This document shows, one piece after another, positions 1,356 through 58,645 of a stretch of 64,000 bases of DNA (the first letter of the stretch is position 1; the number at the start of each line of letters is the position of its first letter). Both the position numbers and the translations under genes were made by a program. Source of the stretch: Lingula anatina (lineage: Eukaryota > Animalia > Brachiopoda); NCBI GenBank assembly GCA_051362555.1, contig CM120640.1, positions 32,197,967 to 32,261,966 of the forward strand. The letters are read 5' to 3'. Under the pieces are notes generated by a model that saw nothing but the letters and a program-made list of their open reading frames with translations, ran no database searches and had not been told where the DNA came from.

Positions 1356-1522
1356 CAGGGGCGGATCCAGAGATATTTTCTGACAGTCTTCCAAATTATC
1401 TTTGTTGATCCATCCTCATTTTTGACCGTCTTCCGACAGAAAAAGTTAGATACCCGTCAATGTAAACTTGAAAATCTGACCGTCTTCCGGAAGACCCAGA
1501 AGACGGCCTAAATCCGCCCCTG
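1356..1522 (+). mobile_element. 167-bp MITE, hAT-like with 5-bp TSD (hAT5-type), copy 1
   Basis: 11-bp TIR CAGGGGCGGAT...ATCCGCCCCTG, flanked by direct repeat GTTAT (1351-1355 / 1523-1527). A near-identical inverted copy lies at 13260-13414. Confidence 0.85.
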
Positions 1523-8268: not shown

Positions 8269-8423
8269 CTGGGGTGGATCCAGATATTTTTCAGACAATC
8301 TTCCAAATTATCTTTGTTGATCCACTTCCATTTCTGGCCGTCTTCTTACAGAAAAAATAACATGCCCGCTACTGTAAACTTAAAGATACTAACCCTCTTC
8401 CGGAAGACCCAGAAGACCCTTAA
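8269..8423 (+). mobile_element. diverged, 3'-truncated copy of the 1356-1522 MITE
   Basis: Shares tcttccaaattatctttgttgatcca and tcttccggaagacccagaagac with copy 1. The left TIR is degenerate (ctggggtggat) and the right TIR is missing. Confidence 0.75.
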
Positions 8424-13259: not shown

Positions 13260-13414
13260 CAGGGGCGGATTTAGGGCGTCTTCTGGGTCTTCCGGAAGAC
13301 GGTCAGATTTTCAAGTTTACATTGACGGGTATCTAATTTTTTATGTCGGAAGACGGATGGATCAACAAAGATAAATTGGAAGACTGTCAGAAAATAACTC
13401 TGGATCCGCCCCTG
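13260..13414 (-). mobile_element. 155-bp MITE, hAT5-type, copy 2
   Basis: Reverse complement of 1356-1522 with a small internal deletion. TIR CAGGGGCGGAT; TSD CCATA (13255-13259 / 13415-13419). Confidence 0.85.
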
Positions 13415-14342: not shown

Positions 14343-14388
14343 CTGAGCCATGCCTGGAAGGAATTTTTATCCAAGTGGGGCACAGCAT
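14343..14388 (-). CDS. candidate alternative first coding exon MLCPTWIKIPSRHGS(+1 nt)
   Basis: Good start context caaaATG with an upstream in-frame stop, 15 codons + G, and strong donor CAG|GTAAGA (phase 1). Confidence 0.45.
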
Positions 14389-20361: not shown

Positions 20362-20568
20362 GGGTGCATTCCCAGAGATTTAGATTTAGATCGACCTAAC
20401 TCCCTGGGGGTTCATGCTAAATTGCAGTCAGCCGAGTGCGCACGGTAGTCAATTACCCCCTTACAGCTTTTAGTAGGCGGGACAGACGTTTAAACCGGCA
20501 AAGCTGACAGTAATCTAGTGAGACTCCCCACAGGGATAGATCGATCTAAAATCTATGGGAATGGGGTC
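20362..20568 (+). mobile_element. 207-bp PIF/Harbinger (Tourist-like) MITE, copy 1
   Basis: Imperfect TIR (gggtgcattcccagagatttagat...atctaaaatctatgggaatggggtc) and 3-bp TSD TTA. Homologous to 32834-33051. Confidence 0.75.
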
Positions 20569-23813: not shown

Positions 23814-23862
23814 CCACATTAAATACAACCCGGTCCACCAATCTAGCAACTTGATTGCCCAT
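23814..23862 (-). CDS. candidate alternative first coding exon MGNQVARLVDRVVFNV(+1 nt), N-myristoylation-type start
   Basis: ccATGG, 16 codons + G, donor TGG|GTAGGT (phase 1). GNQVA resembles GNVA of the 44369 and 38995 exons. Confidence 0.55.
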
Positions 23863-32833: not shown

Positions 32834-33051
32834 GACTGCATTCCCACATATTTAGATCGATCCATCTGGATCGACCTAACTCCCTGGGGGTTCACACTAA
32901 ATTGCTGTCAGCCGAACGTGCACTATAGTTAATTATCCCCTTACAGCTTTTAGTAGGCGGGACAGACATTTAAGCATGCAGTTAAGCTGACACCAATCTA
33001 GTGAGACTCCCCACGGGGATAGATCGATCTAAAATCTGTGGGAATGCAGTT
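32834..33051 (+). mobile_element. 218-bp PIF/Harbinger (Tourist-like) MITE, copy 2
   Basis: TIR actgcattcccacatatttagatcgatc...gatcgatctaaaatctgtgggaatgcagt and 3-bp TSD ATA. Shares ttacagcttttagtaggcgggacagac and other blocks with 20362-20568. Confidence 0.8.
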
Positions 33052-36000: not shown

Positions 36001-36530
36001 TAATGAAAGTAATGCAACTGTATTTGATACAGTTGTATAACCTGATAATGATAACTTCAATGCGGGTTCAAATTTTGTCTCCTGTAAGCATCTATCTCTG
36101 TATGCAATCAAAAACCACTTAGCATGCAATGAGGGTAAACATGGGTTTATTTTTATGGCTGCAATGTAGAATCAGAACTATCACAGAAGTGCTTGCTGAA
36201 GGACATTCTACAATAAAATGGGAGGTTTGAATCTCTCTGGAAAATACTTATTAGTCAATATTCTATAATGTGCTCGTACCTATGACATAATACATATTTA
36301 ATCAAGTCTCTATCAAAATACCTTACTGTACATTCAAAAAATATATTAACAAGGCATAGTCCCAAAAGGCAATGACAGGTTGCATAAAGTAAGCAAAACA
36401 AAATAAATTGACCATTATAGCTGCATGTATGGGCCTTACCAAAGAGTTCCACAATATATATTTCCTGTCTTAACAGTTCCATAACAGACATCTAAGGATT
36501 GTCAAGCATTACGTAAAAAGCAGCAATTAA

Positions 36531-38244
36531 ACTAGAGGATCAGAGAGGCGATACCGCCTCTGGATATTGTACCACCAGCTGGAGTAAGCGCATTCGTATG
36601 GAAAACCCCCAAAAAAAGGGACACCACCTCCAGTCTTGTGCTTAACAAGCTCTATAAAATGCAATCAACAATAGTTCTCAAAATATGTAAAAAAGGCAAA
36701 AAAAAAAAACAACTAAAAATGGTCCAATGATGCAGATTTTTTCCTAACATTGATCACTCCTGTGATTTTTTAGACAATAGACCTATTGTTTTTCCTTGAA
36801 ATGTGTTATCATTGTTGCATTTGCAGTATGGGAGCAACACTATAGGCATATCTCTGCTAGTTTTTAAAGATATGAGGGGCAACAAAATATGCAAAGTTCA
36901 GTTCTTGGTGAAAAAGTAGGTCAAAAGTCAATTTCAAGATCACAGTATATGACTTCCTATTCAAGTTCAATAGTAACCATGGGAATTTCTTTGCCAATTT
37001 TGGAGATATAAATGCCAGCTAGAAAACATGCAAGGTGCAGTTCATCATAAAAAGTAGGTCAAAGCTCAATTTCAAGGTCATAGATAGATTGCCAGTATAT
37101 GACTTTTTATTCAAGTTCAACAGTAACTTTGGGTGTATCTCTGCCAGTTTTCGAGATATAAAGGATGGAAAATTTGAAAAGTTCAGTTCTTGGTGAAAAA
37201 GTAGGTCAAAGGTCAATTTCAGTGTCACAGTTAGATTGCAATTATGACTTCCTATTCAAGTTCAATAGTAACTATGGTTGTATCTTTGCCAGTTTTGGAG
37301 ATATAAGGGACTTAAATGTTGCAAAGTTCAGTTCATGGTGAAAAGTAGGCCAAAGGTCAATTTCAAGGTCACAGTTACATTGCCAGTATATGAAGTCCTA
37401 TTCAAGTTCAATAGGAACTATGGGCGTATCTCTGCTAATTTTGGAGTAATTCAAAATTTATTTTCACCACTGAATAATGCATTGTACTTTTTTATATAGC
37501 GCAACACCTAAACCGTATCGAAAACAAAAACATGGACACCACCTCCAGTATTGTGCTTCACAAGTTCTACCAATTGCAAAATTCAAAAGGTCTCTGGCAT
37601 TTATGGTTCCAGAATTTGAGAGGGTTTTCAGTTTCATATGTAATGGCTGCTTCTCCCATGAAAATGCACCAATTGACCCCAAACTCTCAAAGATGAAAGG
37701 AGTCCCTGATTGTAATCCCTTACCATAATATGAGAGCTTAAGTATGTGTAATTTCTGAAATTGGTACAAACAAATATATTTTTGCAGAAAAGTCCCATTT
37801 TTAGAAAATTTTGGCCCGTTTGACCTTGAAATAAAGGTCAAAAGTCAAATCTCAGGGCATATTTGGAATCTCCACATATGACTTTCGGTCAGACTTCTGT
37901 AGTAATTTTTCCCATAATTCCTTCAGTTTGGGAGATATTTAGCATTGAATTTTCCAAAATTTTGACAAGTGTGCGTTTCAACGAGTGTCACGCCCAGGCC
38001 AAAGCACCGACTGAGACAAAAATATCAGGGGGTTCAAGTTGAGATTATATGTGATCTAAATCCAAGAGATGGGGACACAGGTCCTTGCGGTCTAGGAGGA
38101 GAAGCGGTAACGGTGACTTGTATCCCACGACACCCTGCGGAGCCAACGGAGCCAACGGAGCCGGCGGAGCCGGCGGAGCCGTACGAGACGGGTCGGGACT
38201 AAAACCATGAGTACCGCCAGCGTACACGCTGGTGGTACTAATAA
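36531..38244 (-). mobile_element. 1.7-kb non-autonomous Helentron-associated element (HINE / DINE-1-like)
   Basis: Read on the minus strand: TTATTAG start; palindromic subTIR AGTACC(G/A)CCAGCG (38210-38239); a 9-bp repeat tract (38137-38180); an internal tandem array; the partner subTIR GTACCACCAGC (36569-36579); a hairpin AGAGGCG-atac-CGCCTCT (36544-36561); and a CTAGT end in a T-rich site. Confidence 0.85.
36835..37450. repeat. ~140-146-bp tandem array (~4.3 units) inside the HINE
   Basis: Units start near 36893, 37032, 37178 and 37323: aaagttcagttc...aaagtaggtcaaaggtcaatttcaaggtca...tatgacttcctattcaagttcaatagtaactatgg...gagatata. Confidence 0.9.
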
Positions 38245-38886
38245 TCAAATGTATCCTCACACTATAAATGTACAGTGGTTTTTGCCAACTTCAACTCAGT
38301 TGCCTCACAATTAATGACAACAGCAGCTTAATTAGGCTCTGTAACAACTCTGTTCAATACTCATCCAGGGCATCATTTTCTAAGCTCAAGGGTGTCATCT
38401 TTAAAAGTACCTTACTGTATATGTTTTTAAAGCTGCTTACAAGGCAAATGTTCATAAAATGATTTAATCATTCAGAAGTATCTGCATGGAATCTGTTCTG
38501 TCAATACATTTCCTATTTACATTGTATTCAGTAAAATCTGAACATGCGATTTGACCTCAGAGTTCATTTCAGACATCATCAAAATTTAAGATAAGAGCTC
38601 AAATGTCAAATTGATTTTTTTTTTCTTTTCATGCAAACAAACACTATTTTACAAATAAAAGGGGCAAAGTAGATGTAACATAAACGGATTGGATCAATAT
38701 GTTGAAAGATTCAAAATCAAATGATGCACTAGGTGCTCACAACAATTAATTAAACATCATCTACCACCAGATTATTTACATTTCTCTGTCAAAAGGTTAA
38801 TATAGTATGTGCTACCTACTGCAACATATGTTTCTAATGTGCAACAACATCTAATGACGCCTAAGGGATCCCACCTTCTTTTTTAC

Positions 38887-38995
38887 CTTCTTCCTTCTGG
38901 GGGTCAACTGGCACCAGGTTCCTACGGGACATCCGACGCGACATCCTACGCCCCCATCTGTAGGCCATGCTCGCCACATTCCCAATCATCGCCAT
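38887..38995 (-). CDS. alternative first coding exon MAMIGNVASMAYRWGRRMSRRMSRRNLVPVDPQKEE(+1 nt)
   Basis: aagATGG with an upstream in-frame TAG, in a GC/CpG-rich island within AT-rich DNA. 36 codons + G, donor AAG|GTAAAA (phase 1). The first 8 aa match the 44369 exon at 7/8 positions. Confidence 0.7.
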
Positions 38996-40782
38996 CTTTC
39001 CTGATTTGTTGTGTTCCCAAGTTGTTTTCTGGTTTCTATTTAGAGCCTGACCCTACAAGCCCAGTAATGACTGAGGAGATCACTTTTTCCTGTCCGTCCA
39101 ACACTAAATCAGCTAACTTTCCGTCTTACTTTACACTGAATGAACGGAGGCCTAGTAAAAAGTACATTCTATTGACATATTTAGTGAGTTTTTTTGTACA
39201 TCACCCAACCCAACTCTCTGTCATCTCCGATCTGTTTCTTGCCTGATCTGTAGTCTGCTGGTGCACTTGCATCGATGTTCTAAAAAAATCAGCAACACAA
39301 TCCTAGCTGTGAAGAAGTTGACTAGCACAGTCTGGGACCAAAACTCTCAGTACATTTATGCCAGTTGTCTAGAGAGAAAGAATGTAGGTTATGCCATATA
39401 TAATTGAAGTTCTTTCTCCACTTTCCAGGTAACTGCTACATTTAGTGAGATCTTAGGTAGATGATGCTGGTATCATAGTGTTAATGTGAAGTCAGATAGC
39501 CTGGTCCAGCTGATGCCTGTTGAGTTGTGTCCATCAAAAATAGCTATGGCCAGCAATTGGCCCGGTAATACACTTAATTCCACAAAAACACAAACCAACC
39601 AGCAGTTTTCTCTACTCATCCAGATTAACCATTTTCATGCAGAAAGATCAGTCTACCAGCACTGTGCCTGCCTGTACTAGTAGACTGGTATAAAAATATA
39701 TCATCAGTGGTTACCAAGTTGACTTTGATTGGAGATTTCAGTTGGTAGTAACTGATAAGTCAATCCAATTAACCAGAAGAACTTCAGTAAATACCAGGGA
39801 TTTGGTGTCACACTGTACACAGCTGAAATCAGTATATGAAGATTCAGCAAGTCGGGACACTTCACCATTCCTTAATCTAGGAGAGTTCAATTGAAGCCAT
39901 GCATTAAAGCATGTATCCTTAGTATGTGTATTCTTCGATCTTTCACTTAATGACTTCCATTCAAGCACCAGAAAACTCCTCTATCTACAAACCCTATAGC
40001 TGTGGTTTCAGACAACACAAGCAAGCTTCTGAGCAAGCATGAGGCACCCAGCTAATGCATCACCAAGTCCAAAACCTCCAGCAAAGTTTGATCAAAACTC
40101 AATCATTCAGTATACTGCCTTCTGGGCCGACAACAATGATGTTTAGAAATTTCACCACAATGACCACACAAATATTGACCCTTAATATAAACTCTGTAAA
40201 TAATCACTCTGGGCAGTGATAGTGAATTATATAACTCTTCATTCAGATACACGCTGGTACACTAACAAACATAAATCCTGGGCTGAAAGAACTTTGAACA
40301 CCTTTGCATTGCAAAACTATAGAAAAGCATAGTGCACTGCTCCTGCAAGCAGATCCCACATGGGTCCACGCACTAATACCTTTATTCCAGGCACTATGAA
40401 TAATGCACATGTCCAAGAGTTAAAGAGGTAAACAAGGGTCACATTTAAACCATTGTAACTTTGCCTGATCAGTCACCCAGGAGGAAAGGTCACATTTCAG
40501 CCACAATTAAGAGTTTCAGGATGAGATACATAAGGTGAACTACAATCAACTACATATACACTGATCAATAATAATGGGTTCGTGTAGTGAGAATTGTAAT
40601 ACAGATTATTAAGTGTGACACTAACAGTTGTCTTCTGCAAAACTGCATCCCCACAGGTCTTGGGGCATGACTTTAGGATGAACTTGTAACAGTTAGTTTA
40701 ATAAAGGAGAAATAAATAGCAGCCTATGAATTTCCTTGCACATATACCACTGATCTAATACTTGTACTTCACTTATCAAAAA

Positions 40783-40850
40783 AATAATAATAATAAATAA
40801 ATAAATAAAAAGATTAATGATTAGCTTTAATATTATTATTATTATTATTA
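40783..40850. repeat. (TAA)n/(TAAA)n/(TAT)n simple repeats
   Basis: Directly visible. Confidence 0.8.
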
Positions 40851-43800
40851 CTATAAAGCATCAATCTAAAAATCATCATTTCTTCAGTTTCTTGCCAAGC
40901 TATCTCAGGTATTATTTGAGCCAAATTTCAAAAGTCAAAACACTATTCATTAGACAAATTAAGTTTTATGAAGCAAATCTGACATTTACTTAAAACAATG
41001 GTATATTGATCCTTTTGTGTCTTTTATAATACCTTTGTGAGGGAAAATAAAAGAAGCATTGGAGATCCCAGAAAAAATCTTGAGTCAAAGTCAAAAATAT
41101 TTACAAAGTGAAATCTTTGATTTTAATTCTAAACAAACCACTGGCTACTGTTCTAGGAATTTTTGTTTTGTGAAGAAAATACCTTTTACACTTAATCAAT
41201 ACACTTAAACAAAAAAAATGCCTTAAACAAAACATTTTTTCTGTCAATCTTTCTTTAGCATTAGGCTAAAATACTATATTCTAGTGTAGGCCCAATTAGG
41301 AATCTACACTGCCTAAACTAATGACTGAAAAAGTACATTTTTCATGAGAGCCGCATCAACTTTACAATAAGACCGCCCAGCTGTGCTCAAGGAGACAACC
41401 TCAGCATCAATAATTCAAAAATAACTAATCACCAAAGTTAGCATTTGATGCACTTGATCAATTCTTTAAGTTTACCTACCAAAATTGTTCTTAAAAGAAT
41501 GTAAATCAATGTAACAAGAAGGGTTTGCTTCAAGTATACACTACGTGCTGAGACTGGTTGTCCATTCACAATATCATGAGATATTAATGAACTATGTTAG
41601 TTTTATTATAGATGAATGCCATGAATAGATTAGAATGAAGAGATACATTTTCTTTACATATACCTGCTTCCGTATGTCATATTGTGGCATTTAGAAACTA
41701 ATAACAGTTGATCAACTAAAACAGTTGATTTGCATCTGTGTTCTATGTAACAAAATATTGCATAAAACAGATTAAATAAATAAATAAAATTTTAAAGGTT
41801 CCAGATCCCATTACCAACTAAAATGATCCTGATTCAGGCCTTCACTATTTACCAAATTTTTGAATAACTAAAATAGTGACATGTTTTCAATGTCAAGTAG
41901 AAGAAAAACTACAAACTAGAACCAAGCAGTTGATCTACACAGAATCTGAACTCGAAGGCTGAAAAACAGGCAGTGCTGCTCCCTAGTGGAGAATTAAAGA
42001 ATCAGAAAAAAAATGTGGATCATTTCTTGTTTCTCATCAAAATCATAGACAACAGGTCTTTTTTTTTTGTTGTATGTGTGGTAAACTACACTATGTAAAG
42101 AATTTCAATATATTCATCCATAATCATTAAAATAACACTCATATCATATTGGAGTAAAGCTGAAGTACATTGAAAAGCTTCAATAAGTGATTTTCTCAAT
42201 CACATCCGACAAACTTCCTTTACTGATGACTTTTAAACTGCATAAAGACAAACACCAATAGAATTTGCATCTGTACAAATAGATAAAAAAACTGTGAATG
42301 GCATTCAACTGCTTATTGTGCAAAACAAATGCTGCTACACAGTTATATTGAATATTCATATATTCCATCAAGTTTTGCTCTCAAGATCAACACTGACATT
42401 GATAACACTGACATTGATTGGTTCGCCTCTTACATACATAAGTTGAAGCATACATCAGTCTCAATGGTCTAAAAGAACAGACGCAACAGTCGAATATGTA
42501 ATATTTGAAATATCATTTGTGGAGCAATTTTTGCTCTTGTGAAAAGAGCGAAATGTAGGCAATTACTATATCCTTAAAATATCAGTAAATACATTTCCTT
42601 GGAACCATTAACAATGTTATTGATTAATTTGTATAATGTGTTTATCACAAAAAATCAAAAGATGTTTAGCACTGAAGGAAGGAATGTACTTAAGTGGAAA
42701 GAGGAGAAGGGAACAATTATAGGCTACTTATGAATCACAACAAATATGTATTGCATGTGTTAAAAGTAACATTAACAGAAATTATCTTCCACTGATCTCC
42801 TGATCTCTGACCTAAGAAACTGATATTAAAAAGGTGCAATGCCCCAGTGAAGGTAAGAAATCAAGATCAAATATAGATCTTGATCATTTCCAACCACCAG
42901 TGAGGAGTGTCTGCTTGATTGGAAAACATATAATTGAACCATTTATCTGGCTCCCCAAATCTTCCACATTATATAATTGCATATTAACGTAAGTAATGGC
43001 AAAGGCCAAGTGACTAAGTTGGTAATGGCAGCTGGGTTAATAAGTTTGTATAGGTGGACTTGATTTAGAAATAGTACATCTACTTGAAACTCTATGATCA
43101 AGACTTTTTACTTTATGGAGTATGACTGGTGAAACATATTCTGATTGTATGTAATCAGTTTTTCTGATAAAATACTTTCAAAAAATAGTAAAATTTAAAG
43201 CAAACATTGCATTTTCTTCACTTTAACTGTGTGCTCATCATCTACTGACAGCCCGTAATGACGTAGAACAGCTCATTAAATAATGAAGTGAATGCCACAA
43301 GAAAGAAACAATGTTATCAATTTTGATATTTACAGGAAATTAAGTTTTTGTGGGTTTTTTTTTCTCTTCTTTTGACATAAAAAATATAAGGGTGCCGTAT
43401 CTAATTGTATTGTAGAAATTCACCCAGCAAAATAAGACTGTTCAATTCGGTGAAGAATCCTTGTCTCAAATTATATTATATACTATGTTTCTTGTTGCAC
43501 ATTGGAACAAAGGCAGGTTGTTGGTGATTTCCCATGGTATTCTCCAATCATGTTTCTCTGATCTTTAGGTATCAGCTCACAGATGGACCAAACTAGACTA
43601 TCATAGTTAAGACATTTCAAAAGTGTTGAATACAGCTATGCCAATTGATCTGTATGTATTCAATATAGCCAAATTGATATGTAAGATAAAAACATATGAC
43701 ATTTAATAATAAAAATTTAGGCCTCCAGGTACAGTTGAAATATCTCTATATTATACATGTAACAAGCAATCACCCCTGAGTGATTTAATAGACAACCAAA

Positions 43801-43998
43801 AAGCATGCATACATGATATTTAGAACCATGCTCATATTGAAAGGCATAGAGAACTGGGAGCTTCATATTCCATAAGGTTAAACTGTTCACCTGTACGACT
43901 GACACAACCAAAACAAGCAGCTGCTCATCTACAAAAATAGAATCATCTTTTTTTTAGGTAAAACAAAACAAAAATATAGCAATATAACAATAACTCAC

Positions 43999-44026
43999 CC
44001 GAATAAACAGAAGATTCTGAATCCAT
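43999..44026 (-). CDS. candidate alternative first coding exon MDSESSVYS(+1 nt)
   Basis: ATGG with an upstream in-frame stop, 9 codons + G, and consensus donor CGG|GTGAGT (phase 1). Lies about 260 bp from the MSMIGNVA exon. Confidence 0.55.
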
Positions 44027-44284
44027 GAGTACAGAACTTATCAATTGTTACAAAGCAGGCATGTACCTGTTCTGCAAGGTGAAGTAACCGAGTCTCTCAC
44101 ACAATGGGGATAAAAAATATGCCCCACGAGTTTGCCAAAAAAAGAACAGGTGGGAAAGGTGTTCTTCAAGGAGAAAAGAACTGCTTCGAGGGGAAGTAAT
44201 GATTTTCATTTAAGTTCAAAGAAAGTTAGTTGGCGCTGCAGCATGCCTTATCACATCAGCACCACTGGAAAACTTTAAACTCAC

Positions 44285-44369
44285 CTTTTTTCATAATTTT
44301 CCTGGACACATTACTAGTTAATTGTGCCACCTTTGTAGTTAGAACCGCAACATTCCCGATCATTGACAT
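44285..44369 (-). CDS. alternative first coding exon MSMIGNVAVLTTKVAQLTSNVSRKIMKK(+1 nt)
   Basis: acgATG, 28 codons + G, and near-perfect donor AAG|GTGAGT (phase 1). The N-terminus is homologous to the 38995 exon, with synonymous codon differences. Confidence 0.72.
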
Positions 44370-45574
44370 CGTGAGTAATTTTTAGTCAGGCTCCGCCTCT
44401 TTAACTTGAGTCCAAAAATTAATATCAGTGAACAAGAAAGTCTCATTCACCTCTGTCCAGGGGCTGACCCTAGCTTAAGTAGATAGCTGATGGCAAGTAA
44501 AAATCAATTAGTGCAAATCACTCAAAACTCCCTGCATCCACTTTCAATTTCTCTGCATCTCTAAATTCCTGACTGACCTCTGGTTGGTTGAAACTTCCAC
44601 AATCAGTGGCATTAAAAAAAAAAGAGTAACACAAAGATCAGTATTCAACCAAAACTGTAGCAGCCAGATACTATTCAGAGATACACATGTAAGTTCCTGT
44701 ACTCTTTAGTGATCTCTCTGAATTTCCACATCATTTCAGTCAGGCCGTGACATTAACAGGTGCCAAAGGAACAGTTTTTTGTACAGATAACCTTGTCAAT
44801 CTACATTACGTAAGTATGCATAACAATGTCCAAACTAGCACATAAACTAATATGTTCTCTGGCTTTCTGTGTCCAGGTTAACACATGTGCTCAGTTTTTT
44901 TTGAAACTCTAGTTCGTAAAACGTGTCCTTAATGAATATTCCTGGAAATACATCCCCATTGCTCTGCTGGTTAAGCTAAAGGATTTCGACATAAGATACA
45001 TGAACACAATTACTAAGATTAATCAGAAAATCCATGCCTATAAATCTAGGAATTACAGCAAATTTATGGGTTTGTTATTCTCCGTTGGCCATGCAATGAT
45101 TAGAAGCGAAAACAATAAAATACTTGTTCCAAGGTCAACATGATTTATCAGATCTTCATCTCTCAAAAAAAATTTTTGAAAATTTCTCAGAGATCAGACT
45201 TCCCCACCAAGGTGAGTAAACAGCCAGGGTTCCTAACTATGCCAAAAAATAACTAGATGATGAGAGGCAATTTCTATATCATAACTGAGCCTTCCTTCTA
45301 AAATGTATTGCCACATGGCATACCAACAAGAACATGGTCAGTATTACTACCTATAGTGTACTCTTCACCCCAAGAAATATCACACGGTCTTTATTTTTTC
45401 TCAATGCAATATAACATAACTATCAAGAGTTCTGAGAAAAGACGTTTAGGATAAACTCACATGATTCACAACATTGTCACGACTCCAATTAATTCTGCAA
45501 CAAGGAAAAGGTATAACCGATGCAAAAAGCTGTCGAACAAAAAAAAATGTAATAAGAAAAATTATTTCCAATAC

Positions 45575-45638
45575 CTTTTTTCTTGGACCTTTTTGAAAGT
45601 CTTGATGTTATGCTGGATACCACGTTCACCACTGACAT
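45575..45638 (-). CDS. candidate alternative first coding exon MSVVNVVSSITSRLSKRSKKK(+1 nt)
   Basis: gaaATG with an upstream in-frame TGA, 21 codons + G, donor AAG|GTATTG (phase 1). Same hydrophobic-then-polybasic pattern and KK|G end as the 44369 exon. Confidence 0.55.
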
Positions 45639-48600
45639 TTCTGCTGCTGTAGGTCTTCAGACACTGTTCTGCATAAGTTTGTACAACTGATCCGAGCTAA
45701 ATGCTGCTTTTACATTCCTCTGTCCATCCACTGCCCTTTTTTTAACTCTCAGTATTGCTTCTTCTGGTGAATAAATTTGCCGCAATATGCTTCTGATAAC
45801 AAAAGTTATTCTTGGGGTGCCTTTCTACTCTTAATCAACAACTTGCTTCTAAAAATTGGTCAGCTTTGGTTACTGCCCAATCCCCGCTAAAAAGGCTCCT
45901 GGCTCCCAATCAATAAACAACAGATCCCACTTTGAACCATTAGATGATTCAATATACCAGTTTGTTCGACATGAAGATAAGATCAACTAGTAACTTGGCC
46001 CAACAGTGAGCAAGAAGAAGGGCAGTGTGAGGAGCTGGAGTCCACTTGCCTTGGCTCAATTTGGGGGGAATTCCTGTTGTGTCACTGTCCTGAGACTAAA
46101 GTATTGTACATTGTACATCTGGGTGATTTAAACTAATCTGGCACCTCTGGCCACTGCTAGTGAGTCTGCAGATTTCCCATGGGGCACCCTGCCACTTAAA
46201 TAATGTATTTTTATTTGTCTTCGATGGACATAATTGCCAAAGGTGGGGGGACTAATTAATCAGTAATTAAATTGTACATGGTGTGCTATCATCAGCCTTA
46301 AGCCTATGTACTGGAATACCTCTTTTTATATTTTCATCACACAAGTATTTTCCTTGGGCAAATAAAGTCAATCAGTACCATTGTCTCAGTTATTGAAAAC
46401 GAGTGTGGATACTTCACTAGTTCAGATGGTCACCATCACAAAGGCAGCTTCTGCGCCAGTGAACACCATTGCTTAAAATTCTGCAAACAAGAATCAACTG
46501 GACTTAATAATGCAAGAAAACATGCATGCTTTGTTTGAAAGATTCAAAAGTTTATTGGCCCTTTGTCAAATAATCCTCACTTTTTCTTGATAACAAAAAA
46601 GTTGAAAAGGCTAAAATGGTTTAAATTACAATAGAGAGCCTGTTTTCCCATCTGAGATCCTGTGGAACCGACTATCTAGGAAATGGATTTTTGTGTTTCT
46701 TTGAAAATTAATCCCTAGAATGCAAATAAGCTACATCCTCGCTCAATCAGTACCATTGCTATCACATTCAGTGAAAGGCAAGTAGTTGTAACTGACTTAT
46801 CCCACAGCTGGTGCTTCTAACAATAGGATGAATGCACCAAACATATGAAAATACAGGCAAGCATGTAAGTGAAATACAAGTGCAATTATCCTATAGTTTA
46901 AAGTGTCAGCCTTGGGATCTATTACAACCAACAACTAGCTGATGTTACGCCCTTTATTTCATCAATAAAAATACATACACCTTAATTTGGGACATTAGAC
47001 AGCCTGGCAAATTACTAAATACTTCAAGGCATGATTGTTGTAGCACTAAAGATTATCACATAACTTTGCCACAAATTACGTCAAGCATGCAACCAGGTAT
47101 TGTTTTATATGCATATTGTAATTGAAAAAAAGCCTTCCAACTAAAATAAAATCAGATATAAATTTACTTAAGTATTCAGCTTTTCTCAAATGAGCTTCAA
47201 TGTGTATTCTATACACTCCTCATCCTATTCATTGCTTGCACAAACATTCTAAACTATTTCTAAAAAGCAATATTATTTAGGGACCAAAATATATATATAC
47301 TTGCAACTTGGGCAATGTTTATCATTTTCATTAGAAAAAGGTGGTTGCACTTCTTGTAAGATCAGTCCTTCAGGACTCTTTTCATCAGCAAATATCAGCA
47401 TGGCACTCTTTGGGGATGACAAGTAATTTCTTCAGCACCTGATATCTCAATTAACTTTCCAACAGCAATGCCAGCACCAATTTTAGAAATGCTCTTTCAT
47501 GATACACAATTAAACTTGGAATTTGTGAGGAAAAAAAATGGAAGTGAAAATATTTGCTAATTTTACCTCCACAGACACATGCAGTAAGGGTTTCCTAAAC
47601 ATGATTATTACAAAGTTAGCAAATAAAGTGCAAGGCAGAATCAGTTATCATTTCCTGTGTGTACGTTGGTACGGTTCTGAACCAGTATCACTGTTCTTTG
47701 TTCGCATAACACGCTCCTGTAAGATGGAAAGGGGCACCTATGTATCATGACTATGAAAGATGGATAAATTCACACAGATTGGTGATATTCTGGAATAAAG
47801 CCATATATCAAAGTCAAAGGAGAAGGGAAAAAACTGAATAATTATATTTTATCTATATTTTTGGGGCATGAAACATACAGTACAGACATGCACTTTATGC
47901 CATATTATTTCAATTATTTAACATTAATCCTCAGTCACAACTAAATATAATATAAACTCAATTGTGACAAAACAACTTCTCCTTCCTTTTTGGATTAAGA
48001 CATATCTGTGATGAAATAATAATTCATTATAAAAAATTTATTACCCTCATTTTGCTTTCCATTGCCCTCAAGATAGCTATAAAATCTATAATGTCCTGAC
48101 AGAGTCTGATGGTCTGATCAAACATAATTAGTGTTACAGATGGGCAGCTGTGTCAAGTAAATTGCTTAGATGGCACTTAAAGCAACGTCTGTACAACTTT
48201 AAGTGATGTAAACAAATCACTTATTTGATTGTGCTACCAGCCAAAATTATGTTTTCTGCAATGTTCAGCTACATAAACTGCCTGCTTCTGTCTCATATTA
48301 TAATTATGTTTTAAAAAGTGCTTGGCAGACTAAAAGAGCATGCTACAAACATGATCACCAGAAATGGATAAAATACAATTTCCTGTGTATATGCCATGCA
48401 TGAAATTTTTTCATTATCCAAATGAATACCTACCTGATAAGGATATAATAAATTAGCCGTACCTACAGTTACTTGGTCATGACTATTTGATGACCAGATA
48501 AGCGACAAATAATAAGTTAACCCACACATGAAACTCAGTAAAAAATGAATGACTGGAAAACAACATTGACACATCTTTCCTTTTCCAAATCCACTGACCT

Positions 48601-54369: not shown

Positions 54370-54526
54370 CTTGTTTACAGAAGCAGGAAACTACGCAATC
54401 TATGATACAGTGTTGGCAAAACTTGATGAGCATCCCTCTAAAAGTCCACGGCTCCTGGAAGTGGGCATACTGAGTCTCCAGTGGGAGAGCTTCTTCTGAG
54501 GTGTGGTTTGCACCATGGGTATACAT
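54370..54526 (-). CDS. candidate first (or cassette) coding exon MYTHGANHTSEEALPLETQYAHFQEPWTFRGMLIKFCQHCIIDCVVSCFCKQ(+1 nt), Cys-rich
   Basis: aatATG, 52 codons + G, strong donor AAG|GTAGGT (phase 1), and raised GC. A phase-1 acceptor (ttctttgaatag|) near 54552 would also keep this frame open. Confidence 0.55.
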
Positions 54527-56197: not shown

Positions 56198-58645
56198 AGG
56201 ACAATGTTCATGTAAAAATCCATTTCTCGAATTTTGAAGATACAGCACTCAATCTATACACTAGATGTATGTTTTAATCGATCCCCGCCATTTAAAAATT
56301 ATAAAAACAATCTATTAGTAGAAAAAAAGCGTTTTTGTAAACCTCACCTCAATATGCAAAAATGAAGCAACAGATCTGGGTCACGTGGTACTGTGACGAC
56401 AATCACGATAAAGGTCTATGAGACCCAACTGAGCTGCATGGTGCTTACAGACGGAGAAGTTAAGGAAAGTTGTGTTGAACGGAGTTGAGGAATTTGCGTT
56501 ATGCCTCGGTGTGTTGCCGTGGGATTCACCAAAATTGCAGCTCTCGTTGACAATCTTTCTTTGTCTGTGAAGGTCTTCTGTGACTTACTTATTAACTTTG
56601 GTGACAATAGTTGCGATGCTCTAGATCATGGTCACCTCAGGTGGTTTAGATCATATCAAGAGCTGGTAGTCTTTCAGATTAACTGTCATCAGTTGGCAAA
56701 CTTACTGATTGCTGATGCATTTTAAATGCATTGTAGTTGACCAAAAGCTCATTTACAACAAACCTGTTAATTATGCACCGCTGCAATTCCCAAGCCAGGT
56801 AATAACAGGTATGAAACTCGTCTTGGTGGGCTTTCATATTTTTCAATATATCTCATTTATTTCATGGGGTTATTTTATTGGTATTTGTAAATGACGTTAA
56901 ATATCAATACTTAAACAATTAAGTTCAAACACGGTCGCGAACATTAATAAAAGAAATTGCTCTCAGGGTATCTTGAAGCTTCCGTGGAAGAAAACGTGTT
57001 GAGGAAAAACAGGAAAAAGAGCGTTATATTAAAGAAAAAATGGGAACTGCTATAATAAAATGGTTCGTTATCCTAATTCGTTTATGCTTTGAAGATTTGT
57101 TTCTGAAGATTATTTCATCTGAAATATTAAATAATTTAAAAGATTGATTATTTTATAACTTGAAACGCAAATTCTGCGTCAGTACGCAAATTTTTTTTTG
57201 CAAATTTGTAAGCTTATAACACCGTGCTATAAAGATCTACTCAAGAAAAAAATTTGCTTGGGTAAAATTGAGTACGGAATGAACTGGAGACACTTGGCTT
57301 GTCATTAAGTTTACACGAAAATATGTCAGGTAACTTTATACTGTCTTTGAAAGAGTAAAGATTGAAAGATAATTTTAGACAAACTTTGACGGGGGAAATA
57401 CCTACAAAGAGTAATGGGCTATTTCGCCAACATCTTGTTGAAAATTTTACACTGCAATTCTATTCAAATAAGCTAAGGAACTAATTGCCAAATTAATACT
57501 CTCATCACATAACAGGGGGGTAACCAGACCTGCAAAAATTGTACGCACATATTTAAAAAGATTACAAGCACATACAGCAAAATGTAGACTTACGCAAAAC
57601 ATGAAGGACAGCGTAATCACAGCAAATGTACCTCATATAGTAGCTTAATTTCCATTAATAATAAAATCATCATTTAAGTCAAAAATATTCTTGCAATTTA
57701 ATAACTATTTTAATTTACCCAGAACGGTATATTTATTTTAAAGGCGGTTAACTGAAATATAGTTTTATGATTTGTTTGTGAAAATTGCCCATGTCACCCT
57801 GTTAGTTTGGAGGTCTAAGCTGGATCAAGTCCGTGTTAAAATTCCTATGAAGTTGTGCAGGAAAAATTCTTCCTTTCTTTCTCTAGCTCCTCGATAAACC
57901 TGGTGTACAGATTTTATCTAGTACCCCCAGGTCTACGGGAGCTGCGCTTTGTAACTAAAGCACAGGTAGATTTTTACCTGAGATAACTGGAGTAAAGCTT
58001 AGATAGAGAGTGCGTTCGATACAAGCAAGACAAATTGAATGCCATTTAACCCTCTAATTAAGAGGTAAAGGAAGTTCCAGTTAGATGGATGATTAAGATA
58101 GGACTTGTAAAGGTAACGGGCATTGTTTACCTCAGTTTAATAAAAGTATGCAAGACGGAGTGTCAGCGGTTTAATAAAATTAATTGAATTTCACAAATAA
58201 CATGGACCTCATATGCAATAATCAACATTTCCCTTAACTCATTCAAATGGAGTGTTTTATACAACTTGGGATAACATAATGAAATGCTTGTTAAAGAAAT
58301 GACTAGACGGGAAATGGTTCACGAGGATTTAGACCCCTCGGGTAAGAGATTTGAATGAGTATAAACTTTTATCAGAAGCCAGAGAAGTCATCTTACAGGT
58401 AGACAATGCAGCTCAGTTTGACAGCTAAGCACGCTCTGTTCTCCAGTGGCTCGATTGTCGTCATTGGACCACGTGACCACGTAGCTCATTAACTCCCAGG
58501 CCGAGCAAATAGGACGTTTTTTAAAGCCAAAAATTTACAAAATGAGCTTTTAATTTGTGTATTTGGATAAAGATATCGTTAGTTGGGCATGTTTTCTGAA
58601 GAATATGTTCCGTTCAGGCCATTCTGACGGCATGAAGCAAACCCT
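56198..58645 (+). mobile_element. 2.45-kb internally deleted Kolobok-type DNA transposon
   Basis: TTAA TSD (56194-56197 / 58646-58649) and imperfect TIR AGGacaatgTTCATG...CATGAAgcaaaCCCT. Subterminal inverted blocks 56379-56404 vs 58453-58478 and 56427-56439 vs 58406-58418. CpG-richer than the flanks. Confidence 0.75.
56501..56530 (+). pseudogene. relic of a THAP-domain N-terminus (MPRCVAVG...)
   Basis: Matches the THAP start pattern M-P-x-C-x-A-x-G-C, with the second Cys lost, about 300 bp inside the left TIR. The rest of the 74-aa ORF is not THAP-like. Confidence 0.5.

What the first reader, a model, noticed from the sequence alone, without database searches (positions are those of the whole stretch)
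38887..45638. Paralogous first exons sharing an M[AS]MIGNVA start followed by a basic helix
Seen: MSMIGNVAVLTTKVAQLTSNVSRKIMKK and MAMIGNVASMAYRWGRRMSRRMSRR... lie 5.4 kb apart. They agree at 7 of the first 8 residues while differing at synonymous sites (ATC/ATT, GTT/GTG). MSVVNVVSSITSRLSKRSKKK looks like a third, more diverged member. Inference: an ancient exon-plus-promoter duplication under protein-level selection. The motif may be an undescribed amphipathic membrane-binding or channel-modulating leader. This is the strongest internal evidence that the exons are real.
Basis: partly seen in the sequence, partly recalled or inferred. Interest (0 to 1): 0.8.

Follow-up and report, generated by a model that had tools for sequence, protein, structure and literature searches.

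The report
Duplicated start exons of brachiopod KChIP
A lamp-shell gene for a potassium-channel helper protein (KChIP) has a long row of alternative start exons, three of which likely arose by duplication (one is in the public gene models, two are not) and encode a short positively charged, predicted helix that would tether the protein to membranes without the usual fatty-acid anchor.

Summary
The three minus-strand cassettes are there as described. They lie in the first-exon array of the Lingula anatina KChIP (Kv4 channel-interacting protein) gene; the shared core is outside the window. Exon A (38995) starts RefSeq isoforms X5 and X7. B (44369) and C (45638) are in none of the 16 listed isoforms, and RNA reads were too few to test them. 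The A/B match alone is weak (7 of 60 simulated strands give such a pair), but strong once A is known to be an annotated start and B ends at the window's best phase-1 donor. C resembles A beyond the eight-residue motif (p=0.0001), and a short upstream DNA word is shared (p 0.01-0.03), so duplication is likely. All three are basic and amphipathic, with no Gly2, Cys or membrane-spanning stretch: likely lipid-free membrane tethers, untested. The literal motif was found in no other fetched KChIP; a likeness to vertebrate KChIP1a is not significant after correction. Variable KChIP start exons are textbook, so this is a new variant of a known kind. The scan's notes showed no earlier KChIP finding.

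The parts
38887..38995 (-). Exon A, coding part with short donor (36 codons + 1 base); start of KChIP isoform X7
   Evidence: Identical to residues 1-36 of P0015 = XP_013392495.1; donor AAG|GTAAAA
38875..38995 (-). Exon A with long donor (40 codons + 1 base); start of KChIP isoform X5
   Evidence: Identical to residues 1-40 of P0012 = XP_013392494.1; donor AAG|GTGGGA
44285..44369 (-). Exon B (28 codons + 1 base), likely unannotated first exon, paralogue of A
   Evidence: 7 of 8 first residues as A; highest-scoring minus-strand donor of the window, phase 1; in 0 of 16 RefSeq isoforms
45575..45638 (-). Exon C (21 codons + 1 base), candidate unannotated first exon, diverged paralogue
   Evidence: In-register likeness to A at residues 9-17, p=0.0001, and to B, p=0.036; weak donor AAG|GTATTG, score 0.9; in 0 of 16 isoforms
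43999..44026 (-). Unrelated short acidic first exon F inside the span; start of isoform X13
   Evidence: Identical to residues 1-9 of P0011; donor score 7.5
44450..44459 (-). 10-base word 90 bases upstream of B's ATG, shared with C
   Evidence: Occurs twice in the window, both strands counted; banded p=0.013
45717..45726 (-). Same 10-base word 88 bases upstream of C's ATG
39090..39095 (-). Hexamer core of that word 100 bases upstream of A's ATG
   Evidence: Shared by A, B and C within 13 bases of register; random triples 0.030, GC-matched 0.011
54370..54526 (-). First exon E, cysteine-rich; start of 7 of 16 isoforms
   Evidence: 100% match to P0001/P0002; related to snail and chiton KChIP starts
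23814..23862 (-). First exon D, unannotated, Gly2, member of a class conserved in molluscs and nemerteans
   Evidence: z 6.8-9.5, 0 of 300 shuffles, against seven mollusc/nemertean/unnamed KChIP starts; in 0 of 16 isoforms
14343..14388 (-). First exon G; start of isoform X11
   Evidence: Identical to residues 1-15 of P0008
4545..4599 (-). First exon H; start of isoform X10
   Evidence: Identical to residues 1-18 of P0014

Best explanation
A, B and C lie in the row of alternative first exons of the Lingula KChIP gene; A is an annotated start, B and C are likely further starts, all three likely come from local duplication of one exon with its upstream DNA, and their basic, predicted amphipathic helices would hold the calcium sensor on acidic membranes without a fatty-acid anchor. 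Mechanism, step by step: (1, annotated for A, inferred for B and C) each exon has its own promoter and is spliced in phase 1 to the common core downstream of the window; (2, computed) residues 1-12 are uncharged, residue 13 is Arg or Lys in all three, and positions 3, 4, 7, 10/11 and 14 form one apolar face; (3, inferred) that face dips into the bilayer while the +5 to +6 tail binds acidic lipids, as the Cav-beta2e start does; (4, inferred from recalled kinase consensus) two RRxS sites in A and 2-3 [ST]x[RK] sites in each exon would let phosphorylation release the protein; (5, inferred) the result is cell-type-specific placement of KChIP and tuning of Kv4/Shal traffic and gating.
For: Gene identity: exon E and exon A match Lingula KChIP isoforms letter for letter; P0015 hits solved KChIP4a/3/1 at E 1e-67 to 1e-56, hippocalcin and NCS-1 only at 1e-42 or weaker. 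B: expected partners of the five annotated starts 0.00045; best donor in the window, right phase. C: likeness to A outside the motif p=0.0001, to B p=0.036; residues 2-8 p=0.02 and 0.011. Upstream word shared. Annotation is known to be incomplete here, since the conserved exon D is also missing from all 16 isoforms. 18-residue hydrophobic moment 0.52/0.46/0.48, shuffle p 0.029/0.040/0.018, net charge +5/+5/+6, no Gly2, no Cys. Single-sequence fold of A gives a helix at 8-24. KChIP starts are known to set membrane association (PMC3973911 section 6); an electrostatic tether from a variable start is known for Cav-beta2e (PMC12034931 passages).
Against: No read or transcript shows B or C spliced; both are absent from 16 of 16 isoforms. 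C's donor (0.9) scores below all six annotated donors in the window (2.5-7.5, home-made matrix). A and B do not resemble each other at residues 9-17 (p=0.21), and their DNA likeness is confined to 25 bases at the ATG; free local alignment of 250 upstream bases gives p 0.27-0.86 for the three pairs, and one control triple of 56 also shares a hexamer. The helix model is low-confidence (mean pLDDT 62, residues 1-7 not helical), and in the full-length model residues 1-52 are unstructured and almost all under pLDDT 50. 11-residue moments are not above shuffles (p 0.15-0.26). No binding or localisation was tested.
Confidence: 0.58

Rival explanations
1. Same exons, but the helices are protein-binding, not lipid-binding: they would occupy KChIP's own hydrophobic groove, bind calmodulin, or touch the channel, and so tune Kv4 gating directly.
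For: The conserved part is the uncharged first 8-12 residues, and A and B keep exact residues (Gly5, Asn6), which suits a protein pocket better than a bilayer. KChIP's groove binds an N-terminal hydrophobic helix of Kv4 and some KChIP starts alter gating (PMC10377897 passages).
Against: The variable tails keep charge and moment rather than sequence. The full-length model does not dock the start on the core (low confidence). The aromatic anchors of the Kv4 helix (recalled) are missing from the motif.
Confidence: 0.2
2. The basic amphipathic starts are organelle signals (mitochondrial presequence or nuclear import), sending KChIP away from the channel.
For: No acidic residue in B, C or residues 1-30 of A; rich in Arg/Lys/Ser/Thr, as presequences are (recalled). 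The Cav-beta2e basic start doubles as a nuclear signal; KChIP2/3 enter nuclei.
Against: No targeting predictor was available; composition alone does not separate these from membrane tethers.
Confidence: 0.1
3. A is real, but B and/or C are dead copies or chance, and the 25-base A/B match is kept, if at all, as DNA (for example a transcription-factor site next to the start).
For: Absent from all 16 isoforms; three third-codon positions are identical within the motif and both copies hold GGAATG at +13, a recalled TEAD-type core; blind chance of such a pair is about 0.12; C's donor is weak.
Against: B keeps an open frame, ATG and the window's best donor in the right phase although its flanks no longer align with A; GGAATG occurs 27 times on this strand; C matches A in register at the protein level beyond the motif.
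Confidence: 0.12

Closest known systems
Lingula anatina KChIP RefSeq isoforms X1-X16 (e.g. XP_013392494.1 X5, XP_013392495.1 X7)
   Same: Same gene; exon A, both donors, and exons E, F, G, H are already in these predicted models.
   Different: B, C and D are in none of them; the models say nothing on paralogy or function.
Mammalian KCNIP1-4 N-terminal variants (PMC3973911, section 6 read)
   Same: Several promoters and first exons before a common EF-hand core; the start sets membrane association.
   Different: Four classes are listed there (cytoplasmic, myristoylated, palmitoylated, transmembrane). A/B/C have no Gly2, Cys or long apolar stretch; a basic amphipathic tether is not among the listed classes. 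Related starts described there sit in different genes, not in tandem in one gene.
Vertebrate KChIP1a-type start (P0310, bat KChIP1, XP_016015654.2)
   Same: Best match of the A/B/C profile among 261 Met-anchored KChIP starts, shifted by one residue; short, ends in basic residues at the same core junction.
   Different: Has the myristoyl Gly2 that A/B/C lack; score 13-14 against 26-42 for the three exons; family-wide p 0.06-0.16 anchored, 0.61-0.75 unanchored.
Cav-beta2e N-terminus (PMC12034931, passages read)
   Same: Short variable basic start of a channel auxiliary subunit that binds acidic lipids without acylation.
   Different: Unrelated protein; shown by experiment there, only computed here; no sequence relationship tested.
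Other lophotrochozoan KChIP start classes (Owenia P0068/P0387, Dreissena P0071, P0090/P0091)
   Same: Short, basic, often amphipathic starts; 11 of 90 short non-Lingula starts are basic, amphipathic and free of Gly2 and Cys. C aligns best with the two Owenia starts (z 4.6, 3.8 of 105), B's second half with Dreissena (z 3.7 of 178).
   Different: None has the A/B motif; these z values are uncorrected for the number of comparisons.

Membership tests
KChIP (KCNIP) family | EF-hand NCS core closer to KChIP1-4 than to NCS-1/hippocalcin | tested here: met
   P0015 (exon A + core): KChIP chains E 4.5e-67 to 1.4e-56, other NCS chains 2.4e-42 or weaker, 25 sequences listed
KChIP (KCNIP) family | Alternative first exons before a common core | tested here: met
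   16 isoforms carry 7 distinct first exons, five of them in the window, all joined to the same core start
KChIP (KCNIP) family | Binds and modulates Kv4/Shal channels | not testable with these tools
   No Lingula Shal sequence was fetched; no functional assay
KChIP first exons (B and C) | Transcribed and spliced to the core | tested here: inconclusive
   4 RNA runs laid on 44005-46000: 0 reads in three runs, 3 reads in one, none on B or C; phase and donor fit
N-myristoylated KChIP starts (KChIP1a/1b class) | Gly at position 2 | tested here: not met
   Ala, Ser, Ser
N-myristoylated KChIP starts (KChIP1a/1b class) | Sequence homology to the KChIP1a start | tested here: inconclusive
   Rank 1 of 261 and 1 of 240 when anchored at Met1, own-shuffle 1 of 1000, family-wide p 0.06-0.16; rank 1 of 269 and 3 of 245 unanchored, family-wide p 0.61-0.75
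S-palmitoylated KChIP starts | Cysteine(s) in the N-terminal segment | tested here: not met
   0 Cys in A, B, C; 5 in exon E
Transmembrane KChIP starts (KChIP4a/2x/3x) | Membrane-spanning apolar segment | tested here: not met
   Longest uncharged run is residues 1-12 in each exon (sequence)
Cav-beta2e-type electrostatic tether (works-like) | Short basic amphipathic start without acylation site | tested here: met
   Net +5/+5/+6, moment 0.46-0.52 over 18 residues, shuffle p 0.02-0.04
Cav-beta2e-type electrostatic tether (works-like) | Binds acidic membranes on its own | not testable with these tools
   Needs liposome or cell assay
Dispersed repeat family | DNA likeness extending beyond the codons, copies elsewhere in the genome | tested here: inconclusive
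   Likeness limited to 25 bases; the exons are not among the 20 of 49 direct and 25 of 312 inverted repeats shown; no genome held to search

The most novel reading that the evidence does not exclude
A, B and C descend from the same ancestral bilaterian exon as the vertebrate KChIP1a start; in the brachiopod line it lost the myristoyl glycine, triplicated with its promoter, and became a fifth class of KChIP anchor, a lipid-free basic helix with a kinase switch (two RRxS sites in A) that moves the calcium sensor on and off Kv4-bearing membranes.
Probability: 0.15. Interest if true: 0.62.

Novelty: new variant of a known kind. Interest (0 to 1): 0.38.

Why it matters
KChIP starts decide where the subunit sits and how A-type potassium currents are tuned, and the review read here lists four anchor classes, all from mammals. 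A basic amphipathic start without acylation would be a further class, testable with three short peptides. The locus also shows how such arrays grow, by tandem copying of a start exon inside one gene, and that public models miss real starts (D certainly, B probably). It does not overturn anything: the architecture is textbook and exon A is already annotated.

Tried and rejected
RNA: no RNA holder listed for 36001-45900. One usable lay, 44005-46000 with 4 runs of 3 studies, 6-30% of each read: nothing laid in three runs (no test), 3 reads in X15 over 44005-44138 next to exon F, none on B or C; too shallow to count for or against. Homologue search with exon A alone among longer proteins: 0 of 48 candidates at E<=10, although the exon is in two cluster members, which shows the limit of representative-only search. 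Pfam: 0 families for 4 of 4 exon peptides. Solved structures with exon B: 0 hits at E<=10. Protein atlas: no answer. Full-length fold uninformative for the start. No whole genome held, so genome-wide repeat search, exon 2 position and dN/dS were not possible. PKA catalytic subunit and Cav-beta were considered from recall as host genes and dropped. A shared 9-base word upstream of A and B at unlike distances was not counted. No complex was predicted. Literature: eight searches (20 of 433, 20 of 37, 20 of 1420, 20 of 36, 20 of 252, 10 of 191, 12 of 14, 10 of 10 listed) showed no title or abstract on brachiopod or lophotrochozoan KChIP starts; subscription papers are not covered and no supplements were read, where invertebrate KChIP alignments could stand. 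O'Callaghan 2003 was not held.

Full report
Observation. The three frames are on the minus strand at 38995 (A), 44369 (B) and 45638 (C). Each runs from an ATG to an AAG|GT donor one base after a full codon: A at 38887 or 38875, B at 44285, C at 45575. A and B share 7 of 8 first residues and 20 of 24 bases; two differences are silent, two fall in codon 2. The window is 35% G+C animal DNA with microsatellites and no long reading frame; no genome is held.

What the gene is. A scan for ATG-to-donor cassettes found more phase-1 candidates on the same strand. One of them, 54526-54370, matched two proteins at 100%, both named Lingula anatina Kv channel-interacting protein. Their clusters hold 16 RefSeq isoforms, X1-X16. 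Mapping them back shows five annotated first exons in the window (54526, 44026, 38995, 14388, 4599), two more starts outside it, and two isoforms that begin within the core; no part of the core is in the window. Exon A begins X5 and X7, which use its two donors. B and C begin none of the 16. The protein is a KChIP by comparison with solved structures. These are predicted models; that such alternative models rest on transcript alignments is my recall, and I did not see that evidence.

Is the A/B likeness more than chance? Blind, not clearly: 7 of 60 simulated strands hold such a pair. Conditioned on what is now known, yes: the five annotated starts together expect 0.00045 partners at 7 of 8, and B ends at the top-scoring of 13 strong minus-strand donors, in the right phase; 4 of 910 ATG frames reach a donor of that grade (the matrix is home-made from recalled frequencies). 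For C the test that avoids the eye-picked motif is residues 9-17 in register from Met1: A-C p=0.0001, B-C p=0.036, A-B p=0.21. So C bridges A and B. Against C stands its weak donor, 0.9 against 2.5-7.5 for the six annotated donors. Among the eight exons, the A-B, A-C and B-C pairs gave the three lowest shuffle counts (1, 12 and 23 of 2000; next 48; 28 pairs).

Promoter duplication. Flanks do not align: blastn finds only the 25 bases at the ATG between A and B, and 60 upstream bases agree at 15-21 positions; free local alignment of 250 upstream bases gives p 0.27-0.86. But a 10-base word found only twice in the window lies 90 and 88 bases before B and C (banded p=0.013), and its hexamer core lies 100 bases before A. 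Random triples share a hexamer in such register in 3.0% of cases, 1.1% when GC-matched; 2 of 56 exon triples do, one being A/B/C. I saw the word by eye before testing it, so this is weak to moderate support.

Expression. No RNA holder was listed. One lay on 44005-46000 gave 3 reads in one of four runs, near exon F, and none on B or C: no test. That the annotation is incomplete is shown by exon D (23862-23814), absent from all 16 isoforms yet clearly of a class found in abalone, oyster, mussel, scallop, clam and a nemertean (z up to 9.5, 0 of 300 shuffles).

Relatives. 87 proteins from a search on residues 1-80 of X7, members of 20 chosen clusters (at most 15 listed a cluster) and the best 150 of 12,824 representatives gave 281 distinct non-Lingula KChIP starts. 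Several start classes recur across molluscs, nemerteans and Lingula. No named brachiopod other than Lingula and no named phoronid was in the set, so the age of the duplication is open. An ungapped A/B/C profile scores no foreign start above 14, against 26-42 for the three exons (245 or 269 starts long enough to score). The best Met-anchored match is a bat KChIP1 start (P0310), one residue out of register and with Gly2; a second start of that type ranks 2-3 with the shorter profile and ninth with the longer. I expected this match from recall before fetching it. Its own-shuffle count is 1 of 1000, but the family-wide p is 0.06-0.16 anchored and 0.61-0.75 unanchored: a lead, not a result. C aligns best end to end with two Owenia starts (z 4.6, 3.8 among 105), B's second half with a Dreissena start (z 3.7 among 178), all uncorrected; shared helix periodicity and charge can give such scores.

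How it most likely works. All three peptides have 12 uncharged residues, a basic residue at 13, net charge +5 to +6 and an 18-residue hydrophobic moment of 0.46-0.52 (shuffle p 0.02-0.04; 11-residue windows not significant), with one apolar face at positions 3, 4, 7, 10/11 and 14; none has Gly2 or Cys. A folded alone gives a low-confidence helix at 8-24; in the full-length model the start is unstructured. Mammalian KChIP starts control membrane association through myristoyl, palmitoyl or transmembrane anchors (PMC3973911, section 6 and passages), and residues 1-11 of KChIP1 suffice for vesicle targeting (PMC2171252, passages). One paper notes that KChIP1's N-terminal segment lacks basic residues and shows no lipid preference (PMC7072451, passage), which weakens the KChIP1a parallel in function. 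A/B/C fit none of those anchors but resemble in kind the Cav-beta2e start, which binds acidic lipids electrostatically and also carries a nuclear signal (PMC12034931, passages). In the snail Cav-beta, alternative starts changed tissue pattern, not gating (PMC3972191, passages), a caution against assuming channel modulation. I therefore commit to a lipid-free membrane tether, possibly aided by N-terminal acetylation of Ala2/Ser2 and released by phosphorylation (both from recalled rules, untested). The physical type is not unique: 11 of 90 short foreign starts meet the same criteria.

Verdict. Real feature; known architecture; one exon already annotated, two probably missed, likely a local triplication, function inferred. 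New variant of a known kind, interest 0.38. The scan's own notes held nothing for this place, sequence or gene.

Noticed in passing
window 23862-23814 (-): Unannotated first exon D with Gly2, clearly of a KChIP start class shared with molluscs and a nemertean; most relatives lack Gly2 and are about six residues longer.
   Followed up: yes
window 54526-54370 (-): Cysteine-rich exon E matches the palmitoylation-type starts of snails, chiton and oyster, and a similar start is seen in Ptychodera (P0381), suggesting that this class predates vertebrates, whereas the review read calls S-palmitoylation more recent.
   Followed up: partly
P0068 and P0387 (Owenia fusiformis): Two KChIP starts with consecutive accessions that resemble each other by eye, a possible independent first-exon duplication; exon H (4599-4545) also looks like this class.
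   Followed up: no
window 56348, 60582, 55059 (-): Strong minus-strand donors without a long ATG frame upstream of exon E, near G+C-rich patches at 56361-56530 and 58371-58530; possible non-coding leader exons or promoters.
   Followed up: no
window 38031-38260: A 70% G+C island with short 9-base tandem units 0.7 kb downstream of exon A; open frames rich in Pro/Ala or Arg on the minus strand, no fitting donor found.
   Followed up: no
window 36839-37490: Tandem repeat of about 146 bases, four to five copies, 60-90% alike.
   Followed up: no
window 1356-1522, 8288-8387, 13260-13414; 20384-20500 and 32864-32980: Two small dispersed repeat families; one has near-identical copies in opposite orientation 11.7 kb apart.
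   Followed up: no
window 33795-33735 and 49314-49225 (-): Further ATG-to-donor candidates (an apolar 20-residue frame in phase 1; a frame with four Cys in a row, no phase-1 donor found); no match sought in relatives.
   Followed up: no
P0002, P0015 and other Lingula isoforms: The core also varies by internal inserts and two or three alternative C-termini not seen in the solved vertebrate KChIPs.
   Followed up: no
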